Below, piece after piece: positions 10,333-45,287 of a stretch of 64,000 nt of DNA. Location: IMG/VR virus record IMGVR_UViG_3300032770_000022, positions 1,142 to 65,141 of that record. One strand, written 5' to 3'. The notes beneath the pieces are model-generated. The model was given only the letters and a program-made list of their open reading frames with translations. It had not been told where the DNA came from and made no database searches. The position numbers and the translations under genes are program-made. This DNA comes from a virus (Duplodnaviria > Caudoviricetes). Within the stretch, counting starts at the first letter, position 1, and each line of letters starts with the position of its first letter.

Positions 10333-10546
10333 CGCATGATCCTGACGCGTGCCTCGGCGGCTTTTCCATCGGGTTCTGCCTCAGCCACTCGACGATCGTC
10401 TCCACGATGGCGATCTGGCGGTCGGCGCGGGCCTTGCTCAGCGTGCCCCGGTCGATGAACTTCGGATAGACAGACCGACGCAGCTTCAACTCGCGCTCAA
10501 GCTCGGCGATGGCTTCCTTCGTGGTGACGGGGAACAGGTCGCTCAT
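10325..10546 (-). CDS. Hypothetical phage protein
   Basis: 'ELERELKLRRSVYPKFI..G.LS...AD.QIA', a recurrent phage motif. Confidence 0.6.
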   Translation of the reverse strand: MSDLFPVTTKEAIAELERELKLRRSVYPKFIDRGTLSKARADRQIAIVETIVEWLRQNPMEKPPRHASGSCDG

Positions 10547-28947: not shown

Positions 28948-30271
28948 CGCCCATCGCTCGAAGGGCTGGCGCGCATCGCAGAAGCGGCGGGACGGAGGGC
29001 TGGAGCTAGAGCTCGACCTGCCCACGCTGCACGAGGACCAGGCGCGGGCCTACAACATGCCGGCGCGGTTCAAGGCGATCCGGGCGGGCAGGCGCTGGGG
29101 CAAGACGAGTCTTGCAGAGCTGGTCGCGATCGACGCGGCGGTGCGCGGCGAGTACGTGGGCTGGTTCGCCCCTGAGTACAAGTTCCTGTCGGAAGCCTAT
29201 ACCGACATCGCCGGGCAGATGGCGCCGCTGATCTGGTCATCGTCCAAGGTCGAGGGCGTGATGCGCACTACGACAGGCGGGCGCATCGACTTCTGGTCGC
29301 TGGACAATGAGCGCGCGGGCCGGTCGAGGCGCTACCACAAGGTCATTATCGACGAGGGCGCGTTCACCAAGCCGAACATGATGGACATCTGGGACAAGTC
29401 CATCCGGCCCACGCTGGTCGACTACCGAGGCTCCGCGCTGGTCACGTCCAACACGAACGGCATCGACGCGACCAACTTCTTCTACTCGATCTGCAACGAC
29501 CCGAAGCACCAGTTCAAGCAGTACCACGCGCCGACGCACCGCAATCCGTACATGCCGGCGGACGAGCTCGCGGAGATCGAGGCGAAGACGCACCCGCTGG
29601 TCTATCAGCAGGAATACCTCGCCGAGTTCGTGGACTGGTCGGGGCAGGCGTTCTTCAGCCAGATGTCGCTGCTCGACAAGGACGGCCACGCCTATCCCTA
29701 TCCGGTCGTGTGCGACGCGGTGTTCGCGGTGGCCGACACCGCGATCAAGGACAAGAGTGAGAACGACGGAACTGCGGTGACGTTTTACGGCCGCAACCGC
29801 GCGGTGCCCGGCGTGCCGCTGCTGATCCTGGACTGGGACATCATCCAGGTGCAGGGATCGCTGCTCGAGGTCTGGCTCGCCAAGGTGTTCGAGCGCCTGG
29901 AGCAATTGGCGAAGATGTGCCGGGCGCGGCACGGCTCGGTAGGTGCATGGATCGAGGACAAGGGATCGGGTACGATCCTGCTACAGCAGGCACGCAGGCG
30001 GGGCTGGGACGCGCACCCGATCGACAACGACCTGACGAAGCTCGGCAAAGACGCCAGGGCGATCAACGTCTCGGGCTACGTGCATCGCGGCATGGTCAAG
30101 TTCACGCAGCCCGCTTACGACCGCGTGGTGACCTACAAGGGCGTAACGCGCAACCATCTGCTCGCCCAGGTCGTCGGCTACCGTGTGGGCATCGACAGCG
30201 GCGCGGACGACGCGCTGGACACGTTCACCTACGGCGTGGCTATCGCGCTCGGTGATGCCAAGGGGTTCTGA
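28919..30271 (+). CDS. terL: Terminase large subunit
   Basis: 'AGRRWGKT' Walker A, 'IIDEG' Walker B, 'YQQEYLAEF', nuclease 'ADTA', 'IEDKGSG', 'DDALD'. Confidence 0.93.
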   Translation: MVQTQTIQLDAHRSKGWRASQKRRDGGLELELDLPTLHEDQARAYNMPARFKAIRAGRRWGKTSLAELVAIDAAVRGEYVGWFAPEYKFLSEAYTDIAGQMAPLIWSSSKVEGVMRTTTGGRIDFWSLDNERAGRSRRYHKVIIDEGAFTKPNMMDIWDKSIRPTLVDYRGSALVTSNTNGIDATNFFYSICNDPKHQFKQYHAPTHRNPYMPADELAEIEAKTHPLVYQQEYLAEFVDWSGQAFFSQMSLLDKDGHAYPYPVVCDAVFAVADTAIKDKSENDGTAVTFYGRNRAVPGVPLLILDWDIIQVQGSLLEVWLAKVFERLEQLAKMCRARHGSVGAWIEDKGSGTILLQQARRRGWDAHPIDNDLTKLGKDARAINVSGYVHRGMVKFTQPAYDRVVTYKGVTRNHLLAQVVGYRVGIDSGADDALDTFTYGVAIALGDAKGF

Positions 30272-31752
30272 TGTCCGACAGCTTCAACTCCCCTCCGTCA
30301 TCGACGCTGAACGCGGGCGGCTCGCAGCTCGGCACGGAGTTGATGTCGCTGCTGATCGCCAACGACATCCAGCCCGGTGACTCGCCGTCCTACCAGATAT
30401 GCAAGACGATCTATCTCTATCACCCGCTCGGCGCGAAGATGGTCGAGGCGCCGCTGAACATCGCGCAGTCCCAGGCGCGCGAGATCGACGTGCCGGGCCA
30501 TCCCGAGCGCGTGGCGCGCGCCTTCCTCGACGAATGGAAGCGCCTGCACACGGACGTGCTGATCTTTAACACCGCGAGGACCGCGCGCATCTACGGCATC
30601 TCGTCGGTGGTCGTGGGCGCGGTGGACAAGCCCACGAACGCGCCGCTGACGCCCAAGGAGCTCGCCGGCGAGCAGCTTTTCTTCAACGTGCTGGACCCGC
30701 TGAACACGGCGGGCAGCCTGGTGCTGAACCAGAACCCGAACTCGCCCGACTTCCAGGCGGCGACGACCGTGGTGACCGGCGGGCAGACGTACCACCGCTC
30801 CCGCGTCTGCATCATCATGAACGAACAGCCGATCTACATCGCCTACACAAGCTCGTCCTTCGGCTTCGTCGGCCGCTCGGTCTACCAGCGCGCGCTGTTC
30901 CCGCTCAAGTCCTTCATCAACACGATGATCGCGGACGACATGATCGCGCGGAAGCTCGGGCTGCTGATCGCCAAGATGGAGGCGCCGTCGTCCGTCATCG
31001 ACAAGATGATGACCGGCCTGCTCGGCATGAAGCGCGCGCTGCTCCAGCAGGCGCAGACGGACAACGTGCTGGGCATCGGCAAAGAGGAAGACATCGCCAC
31101 GCTGAACATGATGAACGTGGACGGCGCGGGCACATATTCGCGTAACGATATTCTGAAAAATTGCGCAACCGCAGCGGATATGCCGGCGGTGCTGTTGGAG
31201 AATGAGACGTTAGTGCAAGGCTTCGGCGAGGGGAGGGAAGACGCAAAACGCATTGCTGAATATGCCGACCGCGTGCGCGAATGGATGCAGCCGCTATACG
31301 ACTTCTTCGACGGCATCGTGCAGCAGCGTGCATGGAACCGAGACTTCTTCGCCTCGATGCAGCAGGATGATCCCGAGACTTATGGCAATATGCGTTATGA
31401 GGCGGCGCTGTCCAAGTGGCGCGCAGCGTTCACCGCGACTTGGCCATCGTTACTGCGAGAACCTGAATCGGAACGAGTCAAAGTTGATGATACTAGGCTC
31501 AGGGCAACCATCGCACTGATGCAAGTCATGGTGCCGATGCTCGATCCGACCAATAAGGCGACGTTCTTCTCGTTCGTCGAGGATGCGATCAACTCCGCTG
31601 AAATGTTGTTCCCTGGTAAGTTGACGTTGGATGTCGAGGCTCTGGCTGATTTTACCCCGCCGACACCAGGCATGAATGGCGAAAGCGGGGATCAGGGAGG
31701 TGGCTTGGCTCAGCCAAAACCACCAGCATTCAGAATGAAGGCTGCCGCCTGA
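30271..31752 (+). CDS. Portal protein (DUF1073-like)
   Basis: Position after TerL; 'ARIYG', 'YHRSR', 'GRSVY', 'AADMP..LL'. Confidence 0.85.
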   Translation: MSDSFNSPPSSTLNAGGSQLGTELMSLLIANDIQPGDSPSYQICKTIYLYHPLGAKMVEAPLNIAQSQAREIDVPGHPERVARAFLDEWKRLHTDVLIFNTARTARIYGISSVVVGAVDKPTNAPLTPKELAGEQLFFNVLDPLNTAGSLVLNQNPNSPDFQAATTVVTGGQTYHRSRVCIIMNEQPIYIAYTSSSFGFVGRSVYQRALFPLKSFINTMIADDMIARKLGLLIAKMEAPSSVIDKMMTGLLGMKRALLQQAQTDNVLGIGKEEDIATLNMMNVDGAGTYSRNDILKNCATAADMPAVLLENETLVQGFGEGREDAKRIAEYADRVREWMQPLYDFFDGIVQQRAWNRDFFASMQQDDPETYGNMRYEAALSKWRAAFTATWPSLLREPESERVKVDDTRLRATIALMQVMVPMLDPTNKATFFSFVEDAINSAEMLFPGKLTLDVEALADFTPPTPGMNGESGDQGGGLAQPKPPAFRMKAAA

Positions 31753-31753
31753 T

Positions 31754-31782
31754 TTGCTTTGGTGCGTTGGTCTGCATACAAT
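31754..31782 (+). promoter_or_regulatory. Sigma70-type promoter of guide array A
   Basis: TTGCTT (31754-59), 17-nt spacer, TACAAT (31777-82). Confidence 0.7.
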
Positions 31783-31789
31783 CGGCCTC

Positions 31790-31929
31790 GGCTCGGCAAG
31801 GCATGGATTGCCAAGGCAACGCTGGGTGCGGCACGACGCGTCGCGGCAGGCATGGCACGACCCGGCGCGGCTCGGTATGTCAAGGCTCGGTATGGCGTGG
31901 TGAAAGAGGCGGCTTCGGTCGCCTCTTTC
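31790..31929 (+). ncRNA. GGY-NN pentamer guide array A (two units separated by GGCA) with 3' hairpin
   Basis: 11 + 10 in-register pentamers (ggc-tc ggc-aa ggc-at gga-tt ...), then GAAAGAGGCGGC-TTCG-GTCGCCTCTTTC. Confidence 0.8.
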
Positions 31930-31940
31930 TTTGCCCGCAT

Positions 31941-32095
31941 TTGACAAACGGAACAGGGACGGCTTAGGGTCGCATCGCGTTGCCATCACAGCGCAAGCGC
32001 GATGCTGATCCAGGACTTCCAATGGCCCCGGTGATGCTTCGCATCCCCTGTGTTCGCGCCGGGCGTGATGGGCCGGGCGCCATTGGAGGGCTAAC
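31941..32095 (+). promoter_or_regulatory. Promoter and structured 5' leader of the RAMP-like gene
   Basis: TTGACAAACGGAACAGG; CTTCCAATGGC (32016-26) pairs with GCCATTGGAGG (32079-89), covering the RBS. Confidence 0.55.
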
Positions 32096-32812
32096 ATGCC
32101 ACTAGACCAAGCAACTGCCGGGCGGCGTTCCCGCACGGAGAAGATCACCATCCCGTCGCTGTCTGCGGCGGAAATCGAAGCAGCCAAGGCAGCCGGACAG
32201 CCAGAGATCATCCGGATCGAAAAGCCGAAGCTGCGCACGGCCTCCATCCCGATCGTTGGTATCTCGCCATACGTGCAGCATGCGTTCAGCGAGAAGCAGC
32301 GGAAGAAGATGGAGGAGACGCAGCGGGCCGGACAGCAGGCGCGCGGCAAGAAGAACCGCCAGCCCAAGGACTTCGAGGAGGTCTACGAGGCCGCGAAGCA
32401 CATCAGCAAGGACGGCTGGTGCGGCATTCCGGCTCCCGCATTCCGCAACGCGATGATCGACGCGTGCCGGCTCGTGGGCTTCAAGATGACGCACGCCAAG
32501 CTGTCGGTATTCGTCGAGGCTGACGGGTTCGATCGCAACGACGGGACACCGCTAGTCAAGATCGTCGGCGAGCCGCACATCCACGAGGCGGCGGTGCGCA
32601 ACGACAGCGGCGTGGCGGACATCCGCTGGCGGCCGATGTGGGACGAGTGGTCCGCGCTCGTGCGTGTCACCTGGGACGAGGACCAGTTCTCGGCAACGGA
32701 CGTAATGAATCTGATGCTCCGCGCCGGCTTGCAGGTGGGCATCGGGGAGGGACGGCCCAACAGCCCGAAGTCGAACGGGCTGGGCTGGGGCCGGTTCGAG
32801 GTGAAGTCATGA
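32096..32812 (+). CDS. Stand-alone RAMP/Cas7-like RNA-binding protein, candidate guide effector
   Basis: 'IPIVGISPY' (beta1), 'GIPAPAFRNAM' (RAMP IPxSxLKG-type motif) and C-terminal Gly-rich loop 'GIGEGRP...GLGWGRFEV'. Confidence 0.75.
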   Translation: MPLDQATAGRRSRTEKITIPSLSAAEIEAAKAAGQPEIIRIEKPKLRTASIPIVGISPYVQHAFSEKQRKKMEETQRAGQQARGKKNRQPKDFEEVYEAAKHISKDGWCGIPAPAFRNAMIDACRLVGFKMTHAKLSVFVEADGFDRNDGTPLVKIVGEPHIHEAAVRNDSGVADIRWRPMWDEWSALVRVTWDEDQFSATDVMNLMLRAGLQVGIGEGRPNSPKSNGLGWGRFEVKS

Positions 32813-33249
32813 GCGCGCGCATCCAAGCTGAATTGCTCACTCTGCGCGACAGCAACGGCATCATCGACGCCCGCCGTGCCGTCGATTGGGCGAAGCAGCA
32901 CCAGGACAGCGCCTTGTATCAGGCGCTCGAATGGGACGATGCGACGGCGGCGATCGAATACCGCATCAGTCAGGTGCGGCGCTTGATCGCGGTGCATATC
33001 GTGGACGCAGAAGGCCATCGGCAGGTCGTGTCGCTGTCGGTCGATCGCCAACAGGGCGGCGGCTATCGCAGCGTCCAGGACGTGCTGTCGGTCGATGACC
33101 TGCGTGCGGTGATGCTGTCCGACGCGCTCGAAGAATTGCAGCGAGTTCAGCGGAAATATGAGTATCTACAAGAACTGGCGAAAGTCTGGGAAGCCGCTCA
33201 GCAGGTCGAGCAGGAGACGCGACCGAGGCGCCGCCGCCGCGCGGCGTGA
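32809..33249 (+). CDS. Helical partner protein of the RAMP-like gene
   Basis: ATGA-coupled; 'LEWDDATAAIEYRISQVRRLI' motif; 146 aa. Confidence 0.7.
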   Translation: MSARIQAELLTLRDSNGIIDARRAVDWAKQHQDSALYQALEWDDATAAIEYRISQVRRLIAVHIVDAEGHRQVVSLSVDRQQGGGYRSVQDVLSVDDLRAVMLSDALEELQRVQRKYEYLQELAKVWEAAQQVEQETRPRRRRRAA

Positions 33250-33258
33250 TCACGATCA

Positions 33259-33590
33259 GGCAGGGCAGGCGGAGCATGGACCGTTCCGTCCTGGCATGGC
33301 GTGGCACGCTAGGGCTCAGCAGGCGGAGCATGGAGGGCAGGGTCGGGCGCGTCGCGTTAAGGCTGTGCTTGGCGCGGTTCGGGATGGCTCGGCAGGCTCG
33401 GCAAGGTTCGGCGCGATCAGGCCTGTCCAGGTCAGACTCGGCATTGCGGGGTAGGGCAGGCATGGCCCGGCAGGCGGAGCTTCGCTTGGCGCGGTCAGGC
33501 ATAGACCGGACCGGATCGGCAGGCTCGGTTAGGCGCGGCGCGAAGCGGCATGTCGCTGCTCGGCTGGTCCTGGAACGGCAGGCATGGAGG
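33259..33590 (+). ncRNA. GGY-NN pentamer guide array B (about five long units plus short ones, delimited by GGCA/AGCA)
   Basis: About 60 in-register pentamers; 4-nt delimiters at 33264, 33318, 33391, 33455, 33469, 33518, 33577. Confidence 0.8.
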
Positions 33591-33596
33591 TAGCCG

Positions 33597-34421
33597 GTGG
33601 CAACTTCTTTCTTCCAAGTTGTCACCGACGCCATCAATGACGTTGCCGAATTCGGATACGAATCAGAGGAACGGCTAGCGTATTGGCTAACGGAGATACG
33701 CCAGGCAGCCGAGCGCGATCTGATCTCCGAGGGCGGGCTACAGGCGCAACTCGATCGCGTGCTGGTCGCGACGTACCAGCGGCTGGTGGATCGCGGTCGC
33801 GTGTTGCAGCGCCATTCCGGGATCGCGAGATATACGCTCGAACAACTGCGGCCGCAGCTCCGTGCTGAACTGGATCGCAGAATCGCGGCATCCGCGAACC
33901 TGATCCGGCTCAATCGCGCGACGGCGATCAACGAAACGTTGCAACGGTTCTCTGGATGGGCGTCGTCCGTTCCCGCCGGCGGGACCGACATTACGAACCG
34001 ACGAGAGGTCAAAGCTAACGTCCGCAAGTCACTGGCAGGACTGCCGTTTGAGACCCGGCGTGTACTCGTGGACCAATCACATAAACTCTCGGCTGCGATC
34101 TCCGACATCGTTGCGATGGACCAAGATGCGATCGGCGCCGAGTGGCACTCGCACTGGCGCCAGCAAAACTATCAATATCGACCGGAACACAAAGCCAGAG
34201 ACGGGATCGTGTATCCGGTCAAGGACAGTTGGGCCGCGCAGCGCAGGTTCGTCAAAGCGGACGAGCATGGATTTTACGAAGATCACGAACGCGCAGGCGA
34301 AATGATTTTCTGCCGCTGCTGGATTCGCTGGATTTACGCGCTCAGGGATATGCCGAAGGAACTGCTGACGGACGCGGGGCGCAGGGCACTCGCGGACGCG
34401 CGGGCGAAGGTGATGGCCTGA
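33597..34421 (+). CDS. Head morphogenesis / minor head protein (Mu F, SPP1 gp7-like)
   Basis: 'WHSH...YRPEH..RDG', 'FCRC'; position after portal; GTG start with GGAGG. Confidence 0.8.
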   Translation: MATSFFQVVTDAINDVAEFGYESEERLAYWLTEIRQAAERDLISEGGLQAQLDRVLVATYQRLVDRGRVLQRHSGIARYTLEQLRPQLRAELDRRIAASANLIRLNRATAINETLQRFSGWASSVPAGGTDITNRREVKANVRKSLAGLPFETRRVLVDQSHKLSAAISDIVAMDQDAIGAEWHSHWRQQNYQYRPEHKARDGIVYPVKDSWAAQRRFVKADEHGFYEDHERAGEMIFCRCWIRWIYALRDMPKELLTDAGRRALADARAKVMA

Positions 34422-34568
34422 TCCGAGATGCGCGCGACGGTCGCGCTCATGCCTGGCCGGGAGGCGGTTCCCGGTGTCGTTAGTGGACGTTTCCTCCCAA
34501 CCTTGAGCGGCGCGCGTCTCTCTGACCCCTTCCTTGGTGCGCCGCTTTCTTTTCCCCCCGGAGACGCG

Positions 34569-36518
34569 ATGCCCGGCTTCGAGCTGATGTCGGGCGTGGG
34601 GGAGGACGACGCTGCGGCGGCCGAGCGCATCATCGACGCGCGGCTGGCAGAGCTAGGAGCGAGGTATCCGCGCCTGATCGCGCTGCTGGGCGGCACGCAC
34701 ATACGGCTCGCGCCTGGGGCGTTGCTTGAGGATAGCTGGCACGGCCAGAGCGACCCGGGCCGCATCACGCTGCCGGTGGAGCTGAAACAGGACCGATCGC
34801 CCGCGTCGCCCGGCGGCAGGCGCGTCGAGTTCGAACCGTCCCTGCTCGGTGTGCTGGACCACGAGATCGGCCATGAGATCGAGGCCGGGTTCGCTAAGGC
34901 AGCGGGCCTGGATATCGGCGAGTTGTTCGCGCGCCAGGACAGGGCGGCGATCGAGACCGGTCTCTCGCCCTACGCGGCGCAGGACGAGCACGAGTGGTTC
35001 GCGGAAAGTCTCGCCGCATGGCTGCATCCCGAGCGCCCGGCGGTGCACTTCGACCTGGACCCCGATCTCGCGCAGGCGTTCCAGCGCATCCTGACGACGC
35101 GCGGCGCGCACGACGCATCGTGGTGGACGTATCAAGCATCATCGCCGACTCCATCGTGGGAAGAAGCAATCGCCGCCGGAGCGTTCAAAGGCAGCAAGTC
35201 TGAATGGGAAAGCCTGTCTCCCGGCATGCGCCGCGAGATATTGCGGACCTGGAAACGGAAAGCCGACAGCGCCGGCCTGATCACGGTGGACGACGGCGAG
35301 ATCACGCCTCACGTCGAGAAGCACGAGGCGGACTACACGAACACGGGCGACGTGGAGCATTGCCGGCTGTGCGAGTTCTGGCGGCCGCCCGATGCGTGCG
35401 CGCTGGTGATCGGCACGATCAGCCCGGTCGGCTGGTGCAAGTTTTTCCAATGGCCCGACGGGCGGGCCGACACCGCAGGCGAGGCAGGCGACGATCCGGC
35501 GCAGCCGCTGGTCCGTGGCGCGGGCATGCTGCTGATCCATCACGGCGACGGCGGCGACCGCGTGCTGTTTGTGCTCAACAGGGAGCGCGGCACCTGGGAA
35601 TTTCCCGGCGGCGCCATCGAGGGCGACGAGACCGCCGAGGAAGCGGCCAAGCGGGAGACGCTGGAGGAAGTCGGCGAGATACCCTACGGCAGCGTGTCGC
35701 TGATGCTGCGCGACCGCATGACCGGCGTGGACTACTCGACGTTCATGGCGCAGGCGACGGGCACGCCCGAGCCGACGCTGAGCGACGAGCACACGGCCTG
35801 GAAGTGGGCCGCGCCGGGAGAACCGCCCGAGCCGCTGCATCCCGGCGTGCGCCTCGCCCTGGCCCGCCTGGGCATGAACGAACTAGACCTCGCGCGGGCG
35901 ATCGCGTCGGGCGAGTACTCGAGTCCGCAGCAGTTCGAGAACATCTGGCTCTATGCGCTGCGCATCACCGGCACCGGGATCAGCTACCGGCCCGAGTTGA
36001 GTGAATTCGTCTGGCGCGATCCAAAGCTCTATCTCAATGCGGACTTCCTCGCACGCTGCAACGGCCTGGCCGTCATCTGGCAGCATCCGCCGGGGGAAAG
36101 CCTGACGCAGGACGAGTACGAGAACCGCGTGCTGGGCGCGATCATGCTGCCCTACGTCGCTGGCGACGAGGTGTGGGGCATCGCGAAGATTTACGACCAG
36201 GACGCGGCGCTGATGATGCTCAACCAGCAGCTATCGACCTCGCCAGCTGTCGTGTTCCGTGATCCTGGCGCGAATAAAATCCGCAAATTAACTGGCGGCA
36301 AGCATTTACTAATCGAGGCGGAGCCGTCACTCTTGGACCATCTCGCGATCTGTGGCTTGGGCGTATGGGACAAGGGCGGCAGCCCGACCGGCGTCGCTGT
36401 GGGCGAAGCAGAGATGGCAGATGGCCATATCGAGGTTCCAGATCGAGCGGACGCAATTGCCGAACTGAACCGTGCAATTGCTTGGATGGACCTCACAAGG
36501 GTCACGTCCGCGCTCTGA
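34569..36518 (+). CDS. Multidomain prohead protease-like protein: zincin HExxH + HiPIP-like Cys cluster + NUDIX + DUF2213
   Basis: 'HEIGH..YA...EWFAE'; 'CRLC..C..ISPVGWC'; Nudix box 'GGAIEGDETAEEAAKRETLEEVG'; 'RITGTG..YR..RDP..HP..LSTSP..DHLAIC..GVWD'. Confidence 0.8.
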   Translation: MPGFELMSGVGEDDAAAAERIIDARLAELGARYPRLIALLGGTHIRLAPGALLEDSWHGQSDPGRITLPVELKQDRSPASPGGRRVEFEPSLLGVLDHEIGHEIEAGFAKAAGLDIGELFARQDRAAIETGLSPYAAQDEHEWFAESLAAWLHPERPAVHFDLDPDLAQAFQRILTTRGAHDASWWTYQASSPTPSWEEAIAAGAFKGSKSEWESLSPGMRREILRTWKRKADSAGLITVDDGEITPHVEKHEADYTNTGDVEHCRLCEFWRPPDACALVIGTISPVGWCKFFQWPDGRADTAGEAGDDPAQPLVRGAGMLLIHHGDGGDRVLFVLNRERGTWEFPGGAIEGDETAEEAAKRETLEEVGEIPYGSVSLMLRDRMTGVDYSTFMAQATGTPEPTLSDEHTAWKWAAPGEPPEPLHPGVRLALARLGMNELDLARAIASGEYSSPQQFENIWLYALRITGTGISYRPELSEFVWRDPKLYLNADFLARCNGLAVIWQHPPGESLTQDEYENRVLGAIMLPYVAGDEVWGIAKIYDQDAALMMLNQQLSTSPAVVFRDPGANKIRKLTGGKHLLIEAEPSLLDHLAICGLGVWDKGGSPTGVAVGEAEMADGHIEVPDRADAIAELNRAIAWMDLTRVTSAL

Positions 36519-36521
36519 AAA

Positions 36522-36607
36522 GGAAAAGGCGGCCGAAGCCGCCCTTTCCACCATGCCATGCCGGGCCTCGCTCGTCCCAGCCACGCCTATCCTCGCCTTG
36601 ACGCACT
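36522..36607 (-). ncRNA. GGY-NN pentamer guide array C (one unit) with 3' hairpin
   Basis: Minus strand: gtc-aa ggc-ga gga-ta ggc-gt ggc-tg gga-cg agc-ga ggc-cc ggc-at ggc-at ggt, then GGAAAGGGCGGC-TTCG-GCCGCCTTTTCC. Confidence 0.8.
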
Positions 36608-44960: not shown

Positions 44961-45287
44961 ATGCCCCAAAGCCCGATCCCCGTTCAGGCTGTCATCACCG
45001 ATGGCACGCGCAGCACACTCAACGTCAACGCCGCCGGAGTGATCAAGGCGTCGCCCGGCCGGCTGGCGAAGATCACGGTCGGCGGCACGGTGGGAACCGG
45101 CGGCTCGTACACGTTCAACGATTGCACGACCACGGCTGCGGCTGCGGCGGCGAACCAGATATTCACCACGGCCGGGACGCTCGCGGTGGGATCGGTGATC
45201 GACCTCAACGTGCCGTGTCTGTCCGGCATCACGCTGTCGGCATTCGCGACCGGCGGCGCGCCCACGCTCGCGATCTTCTGGGAATAA
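44961..45287 (+). CDS. Small virion protein
   Basis: AAGGAG RBS; beta-rich. Confidence 0.55.
   Translation: MPQSPIPVQAVITDGTRSTLNVNAAGVIKASPGRLAKITVGGTVGTGGSYTFNDCTTTAAAAAANQIFTTAGTLAVGSVIDLNVPCLSGITLSAFATGGAPTLAIFWE

What the first reader, a model, noticed from the sequence alone, without database searches (positions are those of the whole stretch)
31144..31844. Guide A1 decodes to the adjacent portal gene (..ILKNCATAA)
Variable dinucleotides of unit A1 (31790-31844) are TC AA AT TT AA AA TG GC AC GC GC. Portal codons at 31144-31176 (aac gat att ctg aaa aat tgc gca acc gca gcg) give AA GA AT CT AA AA TG GC AC GC GC. That is 8/11 dinucleotides, the last seven consecutive, and 18/22 nt, again in codon register. 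One mismatch is compatible with a Leu TTR/CTN family switch. The site lies in a conspicuously AT-rich patch of an otherwise high-GC3 gene. The A1 RNA has the same sense as the mRNA whereas the D RNA is antisense to it, which argues for a dsDNA target.
Basis: partly seen in the sequence, partly recalled or inferred. Interest (0 to 1): 0.9.

Follow-up and report, generated by a model that had tools for sequence, protein, structure and literature searches.

The report
VIPR guide RNA matching portal gene
A short five-base-repeat RNA gene just after this phage's portal gene is a guide of the recently described CRISPR-like VIPR system, and its code spells a slightly different version of the portal gene's most conserved motif, so it is probably aimed at close rivals; the machinery is known, but the guide lying beside its own near-target is not in the papers read.

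Summary
A1 (31790-31844) is eleven GGY-NN pentamers. Read by the published VIPR rule (two bases read, one skipped), it matches portal codons 31144-31176 at 18/22 bases, in codon register. This is the best hit in the genome. Shuffled guides reach 18 in 12/2000, 0/500 and 13/1000 trials. Other skip lengths give at most 15/22.

The locus is a VIPR system. The 238-aa gene is a Cas7-like RAMP whose profile hits the solved SUSP1 Vipr, and it has a vap partner and staggered arrays.

A1 decodes to S-N-I-L-K-N-C-A-T-A-A, an allele of the portal family's most conserved motif. The phage's own copy reads N-D-I-L-K-N-C-A-T-A-A. Five of 200 homologues must fit better than the own copy (up to 20-21/22, inferred from protein). 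No perfect target was found.

Best reading (about 0.5): a guide against sibling phages or capsid-forming satellites. The own copy still passes the papers' 80% target threshold, so self-regulation stays open.

A sharp GC3 break lies 12 nt upstream of the site.

The scan had already reported VIPR guides beside portal genes on other DNA (e1-5347215, e1-6070553, e1-5350470) and guide D in this genome (e1-6243029).

The parts
30271..31752 (+). portal gene (493 aa)
   Evidence: PF06381 E 2.1e-15; phrog_146 E 3.2e-49. The closest of 2949 homologues is 65% identical.
31144..31176 (+). portal codons N-D-I-L-K-N-C-A-T-A-A, the near-target of guide A1 (18/22 read bases, in codon register)
   Evidence: The codons lie in the family's conserved motif R-x-N-I-L-K-N-[IVC]-A-T-A-A-D-M-P-A.
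31132..31749 (+). low-GC3 tract of the portal gene (GC3 0.626 against 0.951 upstream); its left edge lies 12 nt before the near-target
   Evidence: Change-point analysis, log-likelihood ratio 43.7; GC3 profile.
31754..31782 (+). possible promoter of array A: TTGCTT, 17 nt, TACAAT (8 of 12 consensus bases). It would start the RNA near 31790.
   Evidence: Read from the sequence. It falls below the threshold of the promoter scan, which found none in 31600-32150.
31790..31844 (+). guide A1: 11 pentamers, NN = TC AA AT TT AA AA TG GC AC GC GC; 6 of 11 scaffold triplets are perfect GGY
31845..31849 (+). GGCAG junction unit; its last G is the first base of A2 (the one-base overlap of a staggered array)
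   Evidence: The same GGCAG junction closes five guides of array B. Legend of fig. S18 of 10.64898/2026.04.26.720920.
31849..31898 (+). guide A2: 10 pentamers, NN = AT AC CC GC TC AT AA TC AT GT; no target found
   Evidence: Best own-genome hit 15/20, P 0.44. No exact match in viral contigs.
31899..31933 (+). 3' tail of array A: GGTGA, then an 11-bp hairpin with a UUCG loop (31903-31928). Like tails close guides C and D.
   Evidence: RNA fold; sequences. The terminator scan does not call it.
32096..32812 (+). vipr: 238-aa Cas7-like RAMP
   Evidence: A profile of 30 relatives hits PDB 36pp_D 'SUSP1 Vipr protein' at E 4.9e-07. AF2 model pLDDT 77.8. Foldseek gives 48 PDB matches at E <= 0.001; the rows listed are CRISPR effector-complex chains (type III Csm/Cmr, type VII, Cas7-11).
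32809..33249 (+). vap-like partner gene (146 aa, helical, basic tail), start overlapping the vipr stop
   Evidence: phrog_15946 E 3.6e-15. Follows vipr in 29 of 71 related loci by tblastn. Model pLDDT 89.3. Only weak winged-helix-like fold rows, E >= 0.17.
33259..33596 (+). array B: staggered array of about seven guides separated by GGCAG junctions; no own-genome hits
36553..36602 (-). solo guide C (10 pentamers plus hairpin tail). Its best hit is 36000-36028 in the upstream gene: 16/20, in codon register.
   Evidence: P 0.014 and 0.021.

Best explanation
A1 is the first of two guides in a small vrRNA gene (array A, about 31790-31933) of the phage's own VIPR system. That system comprises vipr 32096-32812, vap 32809-33249 and array B.

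Shown elsewhere for SUSP1 and P. fulva VIPR, inferred here: Vipr protomers coat the RNA one per pentamer, hide each GGY triplet and present each NN pair. The filament then pairs with one strand of double-stranded DNA, reading two bases and skipping the third, and blocks transcription.

Read this way, A1 spells S-N-I-L(TTR)-K-N-C-A-T-A-A. This is one particular allele of the most conserved motif of this portal family. It shares the rare Cys with the phage's own portal.

A1 is therefore most likely aimed at the portal genes of closely related competing elements: sibling phages, or capsid-forming satellites that carry a portal homologue. The phage's own copy (N-D-I-L(CTG)-K-N-C-A-T-A-A) differs at four read bases in units 1, 2 and 4, which may spare it.

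Targeting first and second codon positions of an invariant motif leaves a rival little room to escape.
For: 1. System identity.
- Vipr profile hit to the solved SUSP1 Vipr, E 4.9e-07.
- Predicted RAMP fold, 48 Foldseek matches at E <= 0.001.
- A vap-like gene and GGY-NN arrays on both sides.
- The cassette is an insertion. In 51 of 52 related loci that show both genes, the head-morphogenesis gene follows the portal within about 680 nt; here the gap is 1844 nt. None of the 63 loci has vipr, vap or arrays.

2. The match is not chance.
- 18/22 is the best hit in the genome, and shuffles reach it in about 0.7% of trials overall (25/3500).
- No hit of 17 or more in 1.6 million decoy positions.
- Only the one-base skip is enriched.
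- The match is in codon register and lies 614 nt from the guide.
- Guide C repeats the pattern.

3. The site is homologous to real portal alleles.
- Among 119 aligned relatives, the second residue is N in 110. The guide reads AA, while the own copy is D.
- Cys at unit 7 occurs in only 4 relatives, plus the own copy and the guide.
- Alleles TNILKNCATAA (P0046, P0167) must match at 20-21/22 and NNILKNCATAA (P0197, P0122) at 19-20/22. Five of 200 homologues have a minimum match above the own 18.
- By DNA, 3 of 62 related loci reach 19/22 and 16 reach 18/22.

4. Precedent: published vrRNA targets lie in coding sequence with the skip on the wobble base, on either strand. Solo vrRNAs match rivals better than self.
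Against: 1. No target better than 19/22 was verified at DNA level.
- The exact A1 pattern gives 0 hits in viral contigs.
- The relaxed pattern gives 0 hits in viral contigs and 5 non-portal chance hits in metagenome contigs.
- 0 of 401 genomes of one order have a match with 2 or fewer mismatches.
- The closest portal relative in 5.8 billion proteins is 65% identical, so no sibling is available.

2. The own allele may not escape.
- It scores 81.8%, above the 80% the papers use to call targets. The better-fitting relatives are only 1-3 bases better.
- The own-copy mismatches sit in the 5' units. In SUSP1 these engage last and are flexible.
- One mismatch is an rU-dG wobble (inference).
- SUSP1 vrRNA4 works with six units.

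3. The pattern is not general in the clade. Across 279 guides of 53 loci (52 Vipr-relative loci plus a piece of this window), only 4 of 279 have P <= 0.05 for a near-match in their own locus at skip 1.

4. Five of A1's 11 scaffold triplets depart from GGY.

5. A1 is followed by a junction, not by its own tail.

6. Portal protein acts in trans, so silencing a rival's portal during mixed infection need not hurt the rival (reasoning).
Confidence: 0.5

Rival explanations
1. Functional self-targeting. The A1-Vipr filament binds the phage's own portal gene and acts as a tunable roadblock. This would dampen or time transcription of the late operon downstream, including the VIPR cassette itself (negative feedback).
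For: - The own site is at 81.8% of read bases, above the published 80% target threshold.
- Units 5-11 are perfect and units 3-11 pair if the rU-dG wobble in unit 4 is counted (inference).
- In SUSP1 the R-loop grows from the 3' end and the 5' units are the most dispensable.
- A six-unit vrRNA is functional in SUSP1.
- The site lies upstream of vipr on the same strand.
- Guide C also sits beside its near-match.
Against: - The guide agrees with the family consensus N, and with a Ser, where the own gene differs. This is odd for a guide selected on the own sequence.
- The papers report no self hits at or above 80% in three surveyed groups and lower self-match for solo vrRNAs.
- Relatives' array guides show no excess of near-self matches.
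- Throttling one's own head genes has no evident benefit (reasoning).
Confidence: 0.15
2. Relic. A1 is a decaying or hitch-hiking guide that entered together with the portal's 3' segment by recombination. It once fitted another portal allele and has no present function. A2 plus the tail is the working vrRNA.
For: - 5 of 11 scaffold triplets are off consensus.
- A1 has no tail of its own.
- The GC3 change-point at 31132 indicates that the region from just before the site onward has a different history.
- No natural target was found.
Against: - The other guides of this phage are equally degenerate: 56 of 95 units are perfect, and A1's 6/11 is typical.
- vipr and vap are intact and conserved.
- GGCAG junctions without tails are the rule in array B and in the published staggered arrays.
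- Seven consecutive perfect units survive.
Confidence: 0.12
3. Coincidence. A1 is a real guide, but its true target lies elsewhere, and the 18/22 portal match is a chance hit found by looking at many guides.
For: - The per-guide P is only about 0.01, and about nine guides were available, so roughly 0.1 after correction.
- A second hit of 17/22 with scattered mismatches exists at 45105-45136.
Against: - The match is in codon register, 614 nt from the guide, and in the most conserved portal motif.
- The guide agrees with the family consensus where the own copy differs.
- An independent second case, guide C, has P 0.014-0.021 and is also adjacent and in register.
- No decoy hit of 17 or more in 1.6 million positions.
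Confidence: 0.08

Closest known systems
VIPR systems (Vipr + vap + vrRNA), characterised in Escherichia phage SUSP1 and a Pseudomonas fulva prophage; bioRxiv 10.64898/2026.04.26.720920 (Results and two Methods sections read) and 10.64898/2026.04.26.720927 (Results read)
   Same: - A small RAMP protein, with a profile hit to the solved SUSP1 Vipr.
- An adjacent small accessory gene.
- Flanking non-coding arrays of GGY-NN pentamers.
- Guide length (11 units) within the published 9-16.
- A one-base-skip code that falls on wobble positions.
- The system is carried by a phage.
   Different: - Sequence similarity to SUSP1 Vipr is weak (E 0.0076 for the single sequence).
- The G-loop reads E-G-R where SUSP1 has D177-W178-R179 (alignment).
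- Scaffold triplets are looser: G2 is kept in 74 of 95 units.
- The tail is a plain hairpin, not a shown pseudoknot.
- The guide's best match is the phage's own essential gene at 82%, whereas the paper found no self hit at or above 80% in the groups it surveyed.
Staggered vrRNA arrays (text and legend of fig. S18 of 10.64898/2026.04.26.720920; the figure itself was not seen)
   Same: Consecutive guides overlap by one base. Here GGCAG|GC is found at 31845-31849 and at five junctions of array B, so each new guide is shifted by one base.
   Different: Processing at these junctions is not shown here. Which VIPR type uses such arrays is in figures and supplements that I could not see.
Solo vrRNAs of SUSP1-family phages and F5 satellites (bioRxiv 10.64898/2026.10.15.759431; sections 6, 8, 17 and 26 read)
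   Same: - Stand-alone vrRNA genes lie outside the main array.
- Guides read invariant codon positions of an essential gene.
- Self-match is lower than the match to rivals, as a way to avoid autoimmunity.
   Different: - There the targets are vipr genes, other vrRNAs, satellite recombinases and host repeats. The authors state that no target region was covered by homology to the guide-bearing phage.
- Here the target is homologous to the phage's own portal gene and lies next to the guide.
Free-standing homing endonucleases of T-even phages and their 'marker exclusion' (recalled from my own knowledge; no call made)
   Same: - A small selfish cassette sits in an intergenic gap beside a conserved essential gene.
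- It recognises that gene's sequence in relatives.
- The carrier's own copy differs by a few bases.
- A tract of different composition starts at the recognition site.
   Different: - No nuclease was found here. The Vap model gives only weak winged-helix-like rows.
- Recognition is RNA-guided.
- Gene conversion is not shown.

Membership tests
VIPR system | A small Vipr protein of the RAMP fold (RRM core, thumb, glycine-rich loop) | tested here: met
   Profile of 30 relatives against PDB sequences: 36pp_D 'SUSP1 Vipr protein' at E 4.9e-07, over the thumb-to-G-loop stretch. AF2 model pLDDT 77.8. Foldseek gives 48 matches at E <= 0.001; the rows listed are CRISPR effector-complex chains (type III Csm/Cmr, type VII, Cas7-11). 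The thumb Arg (R179 here, R138 in SUSP1) and the G-loop Arg (R220, R179 in SUSP1) are invariant in the clade.
VIPR system | vrRNA made of tandem five-base units: constant GGY, variable NN, 9-16 units | tested here: met
   A1 has 11 units and its NN positions vary. The scaffold is looser than published: 6 of 11 triplets are perfect in A1 and 56 of 95 across nine guides. The pattern GGCNN x3 is enriched: 140 hits against 90 +/- 12 in shuffles, clustered in four intergenic arrays.
VIPR system | Conserved structured 3' tail capping the repeat tract | tested here: inconclusive
   Array A ends in GGTGA plus an 11-bp UUCG hairpin. Guides C and D end in like tails. A1 itself is followed by a GGCAG junction and A2, not by a tail. 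No pseudoknot was tested.
VIPR system | Adjacent vipr-accessory (vap) gene | tested here: met
   The 146-aa gene starts on the vipr stop. Homologues follow vipr in 29 of 71 related loci by tblastn. Its function is unknown; only weak winged-helix-like fold rows.
VIPR system | One-base-skip code: NN pairs match a target with every third base skipped, usually the wobble base | tested here: met
   18/22 at skip 1 against at most 15/22 at skips 0, 2, 3 and 4. The match is in codon register.
VIPR system | vrRNA is expressed and bound by Vipr; the complex binds DNA and silences it | not testable with these tools
   No RNA run holds the stretch.
VIPR system | Reported property: natural targets at >= 80% NN match in competing elements and none in the guide's own contig | tested here: not met
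   The own portal scores 18/22 = 81.8%. Foreign portals reach 19/22 in 3 of 62 DNA loci and 20-21/22 in 2 of 200 proteins by inference. This is a reported observation on surveyed clades, not a definition.
Staggered vrRNA array | Neighbouring vrRNAs overlap by one base in the array | tested here: met
   The GGCAG unit's last G starts the next in-phase run at 31849, 33395, 33459, 33473, 33522 and 33581. Cleavage at these points was not tested.
Homing-endonuclease-like marker exclusion (considered only as 'works like') | A nuclease that cuts the sensitive allele, followed by co-conversion of flanking DNA | tested here: inconclusive
   No nuclease family or fold in Vipr or Vap. A GC3 change-point 12 nt upstream of the site is compatible with a crossover there but does not prove one. 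A region-restricted search found no separate donor lineage.

The most novel reading that the evidence does not exclude
Guide A1 and the mismatched portal segment are one linked 'weapon plus immunity allele' cassette that spreads like a gene drive. Sibling genomes that carry the sensitive portal allele are blocked by the Vipr-A1 filament. They are rescued only if they recombine in the stretch running from the target site through the guide.

On this reading:
- The abrupt GC3 break 12 nt upstream of the site is the scar of such a crossover.
- Guide C, beside its own near-match, is a second cassette of this kind; guide D, reported by an earlier follow-up (e1-6243029) and not reproduced here, might be a third.
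- The whole would be an RNA-guided analogue of the marker exclusion caused by free-standing homing endonucleases.
Probability: 0.15. Interest if true: 0.85.

Novelty: new member of a known kind. Interest (0 to 1): 0.5.

Why it matters
The machinery is not new. VIPR was described in three 2026 preprints, and this locus is a further, rather divergent member with staggered arrays.

What this case adds is the choice and placement of the target:
- The guide's code spells an allele of the most conserved motif of the phage's own portal family.
- It lies 614 nt from that motif.
- The own copy sits just above the 80% match that the papers use to call targets.

If the own copy is spared, this phage gives a natural measure of how few mismatches, and at which end of the guide, separate self from non-self for a VIPR filament. 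That matters both for phage-phage competition and for any use of VIPR as a programmable silencer.

If the own copy is bound, VIPR also serves gene regulation within the phage.

Guide and near-target lie side by side here for A1 and C, and earlier notes of this scan report the same on other DNA. This points to selection for keeping weapon and immune allele linked. I did not find this idea in the main texts I read.

Tried and rejected
**Repeat and RNA family searches**
- Tandem Repeats Finder did not call the period-5 arrays; it gave only a period-9 row at 33386-33412.
- Rfam gave no match in the window.
- The scans called no sigma-70 promoter or intrinsic terminator in 31600-32150. The promoter and terminator named in the report are therefore my reading of the sequence, below those thresholds.
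- Megablast of 30271-33600 against GenBank phages gave no match.

**Search for the ideal target**
- Exact A1 pattern in viral contigs: 0.
- Pattern relaxed to units 2-11 with YT at unit 4: 0 in viral contigs. In metagenome contigs it gave 5 hits. None lies in a long open reading frame: all have in-frame stops within the about 80-nt window shown (three inside the matched stretch), so I took them as chance.
- One order of bacteria, 401 genomes, up to 2 mismatches: 0.
- A2 pattern in viral contigs: 0.

**DNA of the better-fitting alleles**
P0167, P0197 and P0122 were therefore not attempted. Their fit is inferred from the amino acids alone.

**Sequencing runs**
- No RNA holder is listed.
- Two DNA runs kept as contigs were laid. 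X1 may be the source. X2 holds identical fragments.
- No variant letters were listed at 31144-31176. Contigs drop rare variants, so this says little.

**Mosaic test**
- A search with portal residues 280-493 alone returned the same relatives at 62% or less, so no donor lineage was found.

**Clade-wide test for near-self matches**
- 279 guides in 53 loci (52 Vipr-relative loci plus a piece of this window); P <= 0.05 in 4 of 279 at skip 1, against 10, 6 and 8 at skips 0, 2 and 3.
- The caller takes only runs of 8 or more well-formed units. It cut A1 to 9 units in the window piece. 18 of the 71 relative loci gave no guide.
- No foreign guide resembles A1; the best is 10/14.

**Other checks**
- Vap: no Pfam family, no significant PDB sequence hit and no Foldseek match at E <= 0.001.
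- Tyrosine integrase PF00589: none in the 65-kb record. Other integration or lysogeny genes were not sought.
- The Foldseek PDB library ends on 2026-04-08 and returned no Vipr chain among the listed rows. The link to Vipr therefore rests on the sequence profile.
- Supplementary files of the papers were closed. Type assignments, data S3 target lists and mismatch experiments (fig. S12) may bear on self-targeting and on whether structural genes are listed as targets.
- Search for print precedent: 'vrRNA' plus 'portal' gave one paper, where portal appears only as a prophage hallmark. 'portal' and 'capsid' are absent from the discovery preprint's main text.
Full report
**What is there**

The stretch 31790-31844 is eleven five-base units. 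The first three bases of each are near GGY, and the last two vary: TC AA AT TT AA AA TG GC AC GC GC. It lies 38 nt after the stop codon of a 493-aa portal gene at 30271-31752 (PF06381, E 2.1e-15; phrog_146, E 3.2e-49). Codons 31144-31176 of that gene (N-D-I-L-K-N-C-A-T-A-A) carry AA GA AT CT AA AA TG GC AC GC GC at their first two positions. The figures and coordinates are correct.

**Is it more than chance?**

I scanned both strands of the window with A1's dinucleotides at a one-base skip.
- The portal site is the best hit at 18/22, followed by 17/22 at 45105-45136.
- With skips of 0, 2, 3 or 4 bases the best is 15/22, with P 0.76-0.95.
- Guides with shuffled dinucleotide order reach 18 in 12 of 2000, 0 of 500 and 13 of 1000 trials. 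Base shuffles do so in 5 of 2000.
- In 1,623,720 positions of unrelated phage DNA, A1 never reaches 17.

One guide at P of about 0.01 among some nine guides would be only suggestive. Other facts add to it:
- The hit is in codon register.
- It lies 614 nt from the guide, and a span of +/-650 nt is 2% of the genome.
- A second guide, C (36553-36602, minus strand), has its best hit (16/20, P 0.014 and 0.021) in register in the gene next to it, at 36000-36028.
- Of 45 guide-by-skip tests, only these two are at or below 0.05.

I take the relation as real, with about 0.9 confidence.

**What the system is**

I checked this myself.

Three 2026 preprints describe Viral Interference Programmable Repeat systems. 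A small RAMP protein (Vipr), an accessory gene (vap) and vrRNAs of 9-16 GGY/NN pentamers make up the system. It recognises double-stranded DNA by pairing only the NN bases and skipping one target base per unit, usually the wobble base, on either strand. The result is transcriptional silencing.

Here the evidence is as follows.
- The 238-aa gene at 32096-32812 has no Pfam family. A profile of 30 relatives hits the solved 'SUSP1 Vipr protein' (36pp_D) at E 4.9e-07 across the thumb and glycine-rich loop.
- Its AlphaFold model (pLDDT 77.8) gives 48 Foldseek matches at E <= 0.001. The rows listed are CRISPR effector-complex chains: type III Csm/Cmr, type VII and Cas7-11.
- A 146-aa helical gene overlaps its stop and follows vipr in 29 of 71 related loci.
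- Pentamer arrays flank the pair.
- Guides in array B, and A1 itself, end in a GGCAG unit whose last G begins the next guide. This is the one-base overlap described for 'staggered arrays' (legend of fig. S18).
- Array A as a whole has a weak promoter-like TTGCTT-17-TACAAT placed to start the RNA at about 31790. It ends in a UUCG hairpin. Neither is called by the consensus scans.
- The cassette is an insertion. In 51 of 52 related head modules that show both genes, the head-morphogenesis gene follows the portal within about 680 nt; here the gap is 1844 nt. None of the 63 related loci has vipr, vap or arrays.

**What A1 spells**

By the published code, A1 reads S-(N/K)-(I/M)-(F/L)-(K/N)-(K/N)-(C/W)-A-T-A-A. 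The portal site lies in the most conserved motif of the family, R-x-N-I-L-K-N-[IVC]-A-T-A-A-D-M-P-A.

Among 119 aligned relatives:
- The second residue is N in 110 and D in 8. The guide reads AA (N), whereas the phage's own gene has GAT (D).
- Cys at the seventh residue occurs in only 4 relatives, but in both the guide and the own gene.

So A1 does not spell the family consensus. It spells one particular allele, close to the phage's own but nearer to the ancestral N.

Because first and second codon bases follow from the amino acid (except for L, R and S), the fit of any homologue can be bounded from its protein:
- TNILKNCATAA (P0046, P0167) must match at 20-21/22.
- NNILKNCATAA (P0197, P0122) and TNILKNCATAG (P0182) must match at 19-20/22.
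- Thus five of 200 homologues have a minimum above the own 18.

By DNA, 3 of 62 related loci reach 19/22 and 16 reach 18/22. The phage has no close sibling in the collections.

**Is the own copy spared?**

This is open.
- The own site is at 81.8%, above the 80% used in the papers to call natural targets. Those papers found no self hit at that level in the groups they surveyed.
- The four mismatches lie in units 1, 2 and 4. In SUSP1 the R-loop grows from the 3' tail towards the 5' end, and the 5'-most units are flexible.
- The unit-4 difference (guide U, coding-strand C, hence template G) is an rU-dG wobble (my inference).
- A six-unit vrRNA works in SUSP1.

On these grounds the filament might well bind the phage's own portal gene. 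Against a guide selected on the own sequence stand the N and S readings above, and the published finding that solo vrRNAs match rivals better than self. A test on 279 guides from 53 loci (52 Vipr-relative loci plus a piece of this window) showed no excess of near-matches within their own loci: 4 of 279 at P <= 0.05. So this is not a general habit of array guides in the clade.

**The compositional break**

GC3 of the portal gene is 0.951 up to nt 31132 and 0.626 from there to the stop (log-likelihood ratio 43.7). The break lies 12 nt before the near-target. A window that close covers about 4% of the gene, so this is suggestive, not decisive.

The site itself has GC3 0.45, the 5th percentile, and the C site has 0.55, the 9th percentile. 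Since VIPR ignores wobble bases, low GC3 cannot be escape by recoding. A recombination junction is the simpler reading. A region-restricted protein search found no distinct donor lineage.

**Explanations**

- **Best (0.5):** A1 is a working guide aimed at the portal genes of close competitors, either sibling phages or capsid-forming satellites with a portal homologue. It reads invariant codon positions so that rivals cannot escape. The own allele differs at the 5' units.
- **Self-regulation of the late operon (0.15).**
- **A relic imported with the portal's 3' segment (0.12).**
- **Coincidence (0.08).**
- **Most novel reading not excluded (0.15, overlapping the best one):** guide and immune allele form a linked cassette that spreads by rescue recombination, with the GC3 break as the crossover scar. 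This would be an RNA-guided analogue of homing-endonuclease marker exclusion. That comparison is recalled from my own knowledge and was not tested. No nuclease was found, and the Vap model gives only weak winged-helix-like rows.

**Comparison and novelty**

The locus meets the tested defining features of VIPR: RAMP protein, GGY/NN vrRNA, vap gene and skip-one code.

It differs in degree:
- The scaffold is looser. G2 is kept in 74 of 95 units.
- The G-loop reads E-G-R where SUSP1 has D-W-R. The missing Trp stacks on G2 in SUSP1, which may explain the looseness (inference).
- The tail is a hairpin.

So it is a new member of a known kind.

I did not find three things in the main texts I read: a portal target, a target homologous to the guide-bearing phage's own gene, or a guide placed beside it. 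Supplements were closed.

Within this scan the pattern is not new. Earlier follow-ups report solo VIPR guides beside portal genes that fit relatives better than self on other DNA (e1-5347215, e1-6070553, e1-5350470), and guide D in this genome (e1-6243029). I did not check those.

Noticed in passing
window 45105-45136 (+): Second-best A1 hit: 17/22 with scattered mismatches (peptide S-Y-T-F-N-D-C-T-T-T-A), in register with ORF 44961-45287. Shuffled guides reach 17 or more in about 6% of trials. Probably chance.
   Followed up: partly
window 36000-36028 (+) and 36553-36602 (-): Solo guide C matches the 3' part of the upstream 696-aa gene (NUDIX domain, phrog_6216) at 16/20, in codon register (own S-E-F-V-W-R-D-P-K-L). 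P is 0.014-0.021. The local GC3 dips to 0.55.
   Followed up: partly
window 34428-36518 (+): The 696-aa head-module protein carries a NUDIX domain (PF00293, E 1e-14, residues 363-475) joined to a phrog_6216 region (E 1.7e-100). This is an unusual cargo in a head gene.
   Followed up: no
window 32096-32812, residues 218-220: The glycine-rich loop reads E-G-R where SUSP1 Vipr has D177-W178-R179. The Trp that stacks on the second G of GGY is replaced by an invariant Gly in 30 clade members. In this phage the second scaffold base is also the least conserved (74 of 95 units).
   Followed up: partly
L092:7406-7450 against L042-L047, L049, L050 and L061 (about 10450-10540, minus strand): A guide of another Vipr-bearing phage matches a conserved site about 3.1 kb downstream of the portal at 16/18, in wobble-skip register (peptide ..T-A-T-T-F-T-Y-V..), in nine phages of this portal family. 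P is 0.015 for that guide alone, which is not significant after correction for about 250 guides.
   Followed up: partly
L072:8743-8787 against L072:8670-8695: A guide lying between vipr and vap matches the last codons of its own vipr gene at 15/18 (P 0.03), 48 nt away. This recalls the published vipr-targeting solo vrRNAs.
   Followed up: no
window 31940-32095: The 155-nt spacer between the array A tail and the vipr start holds an inverted repeat (about 31968-32006, gcatcgcg...cgcgatgc). It was not analysed and might be a regulatory site for vipr.
   Followed up: no
whole record G000: The virus record is 65,141 nt, linear, and rated 100% complete. It has no tyrosine integrase (PF00589). The same portal protein is on record on a 75,612-nt contig, so the record may be shorter than the source contig.
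   Followed up: no
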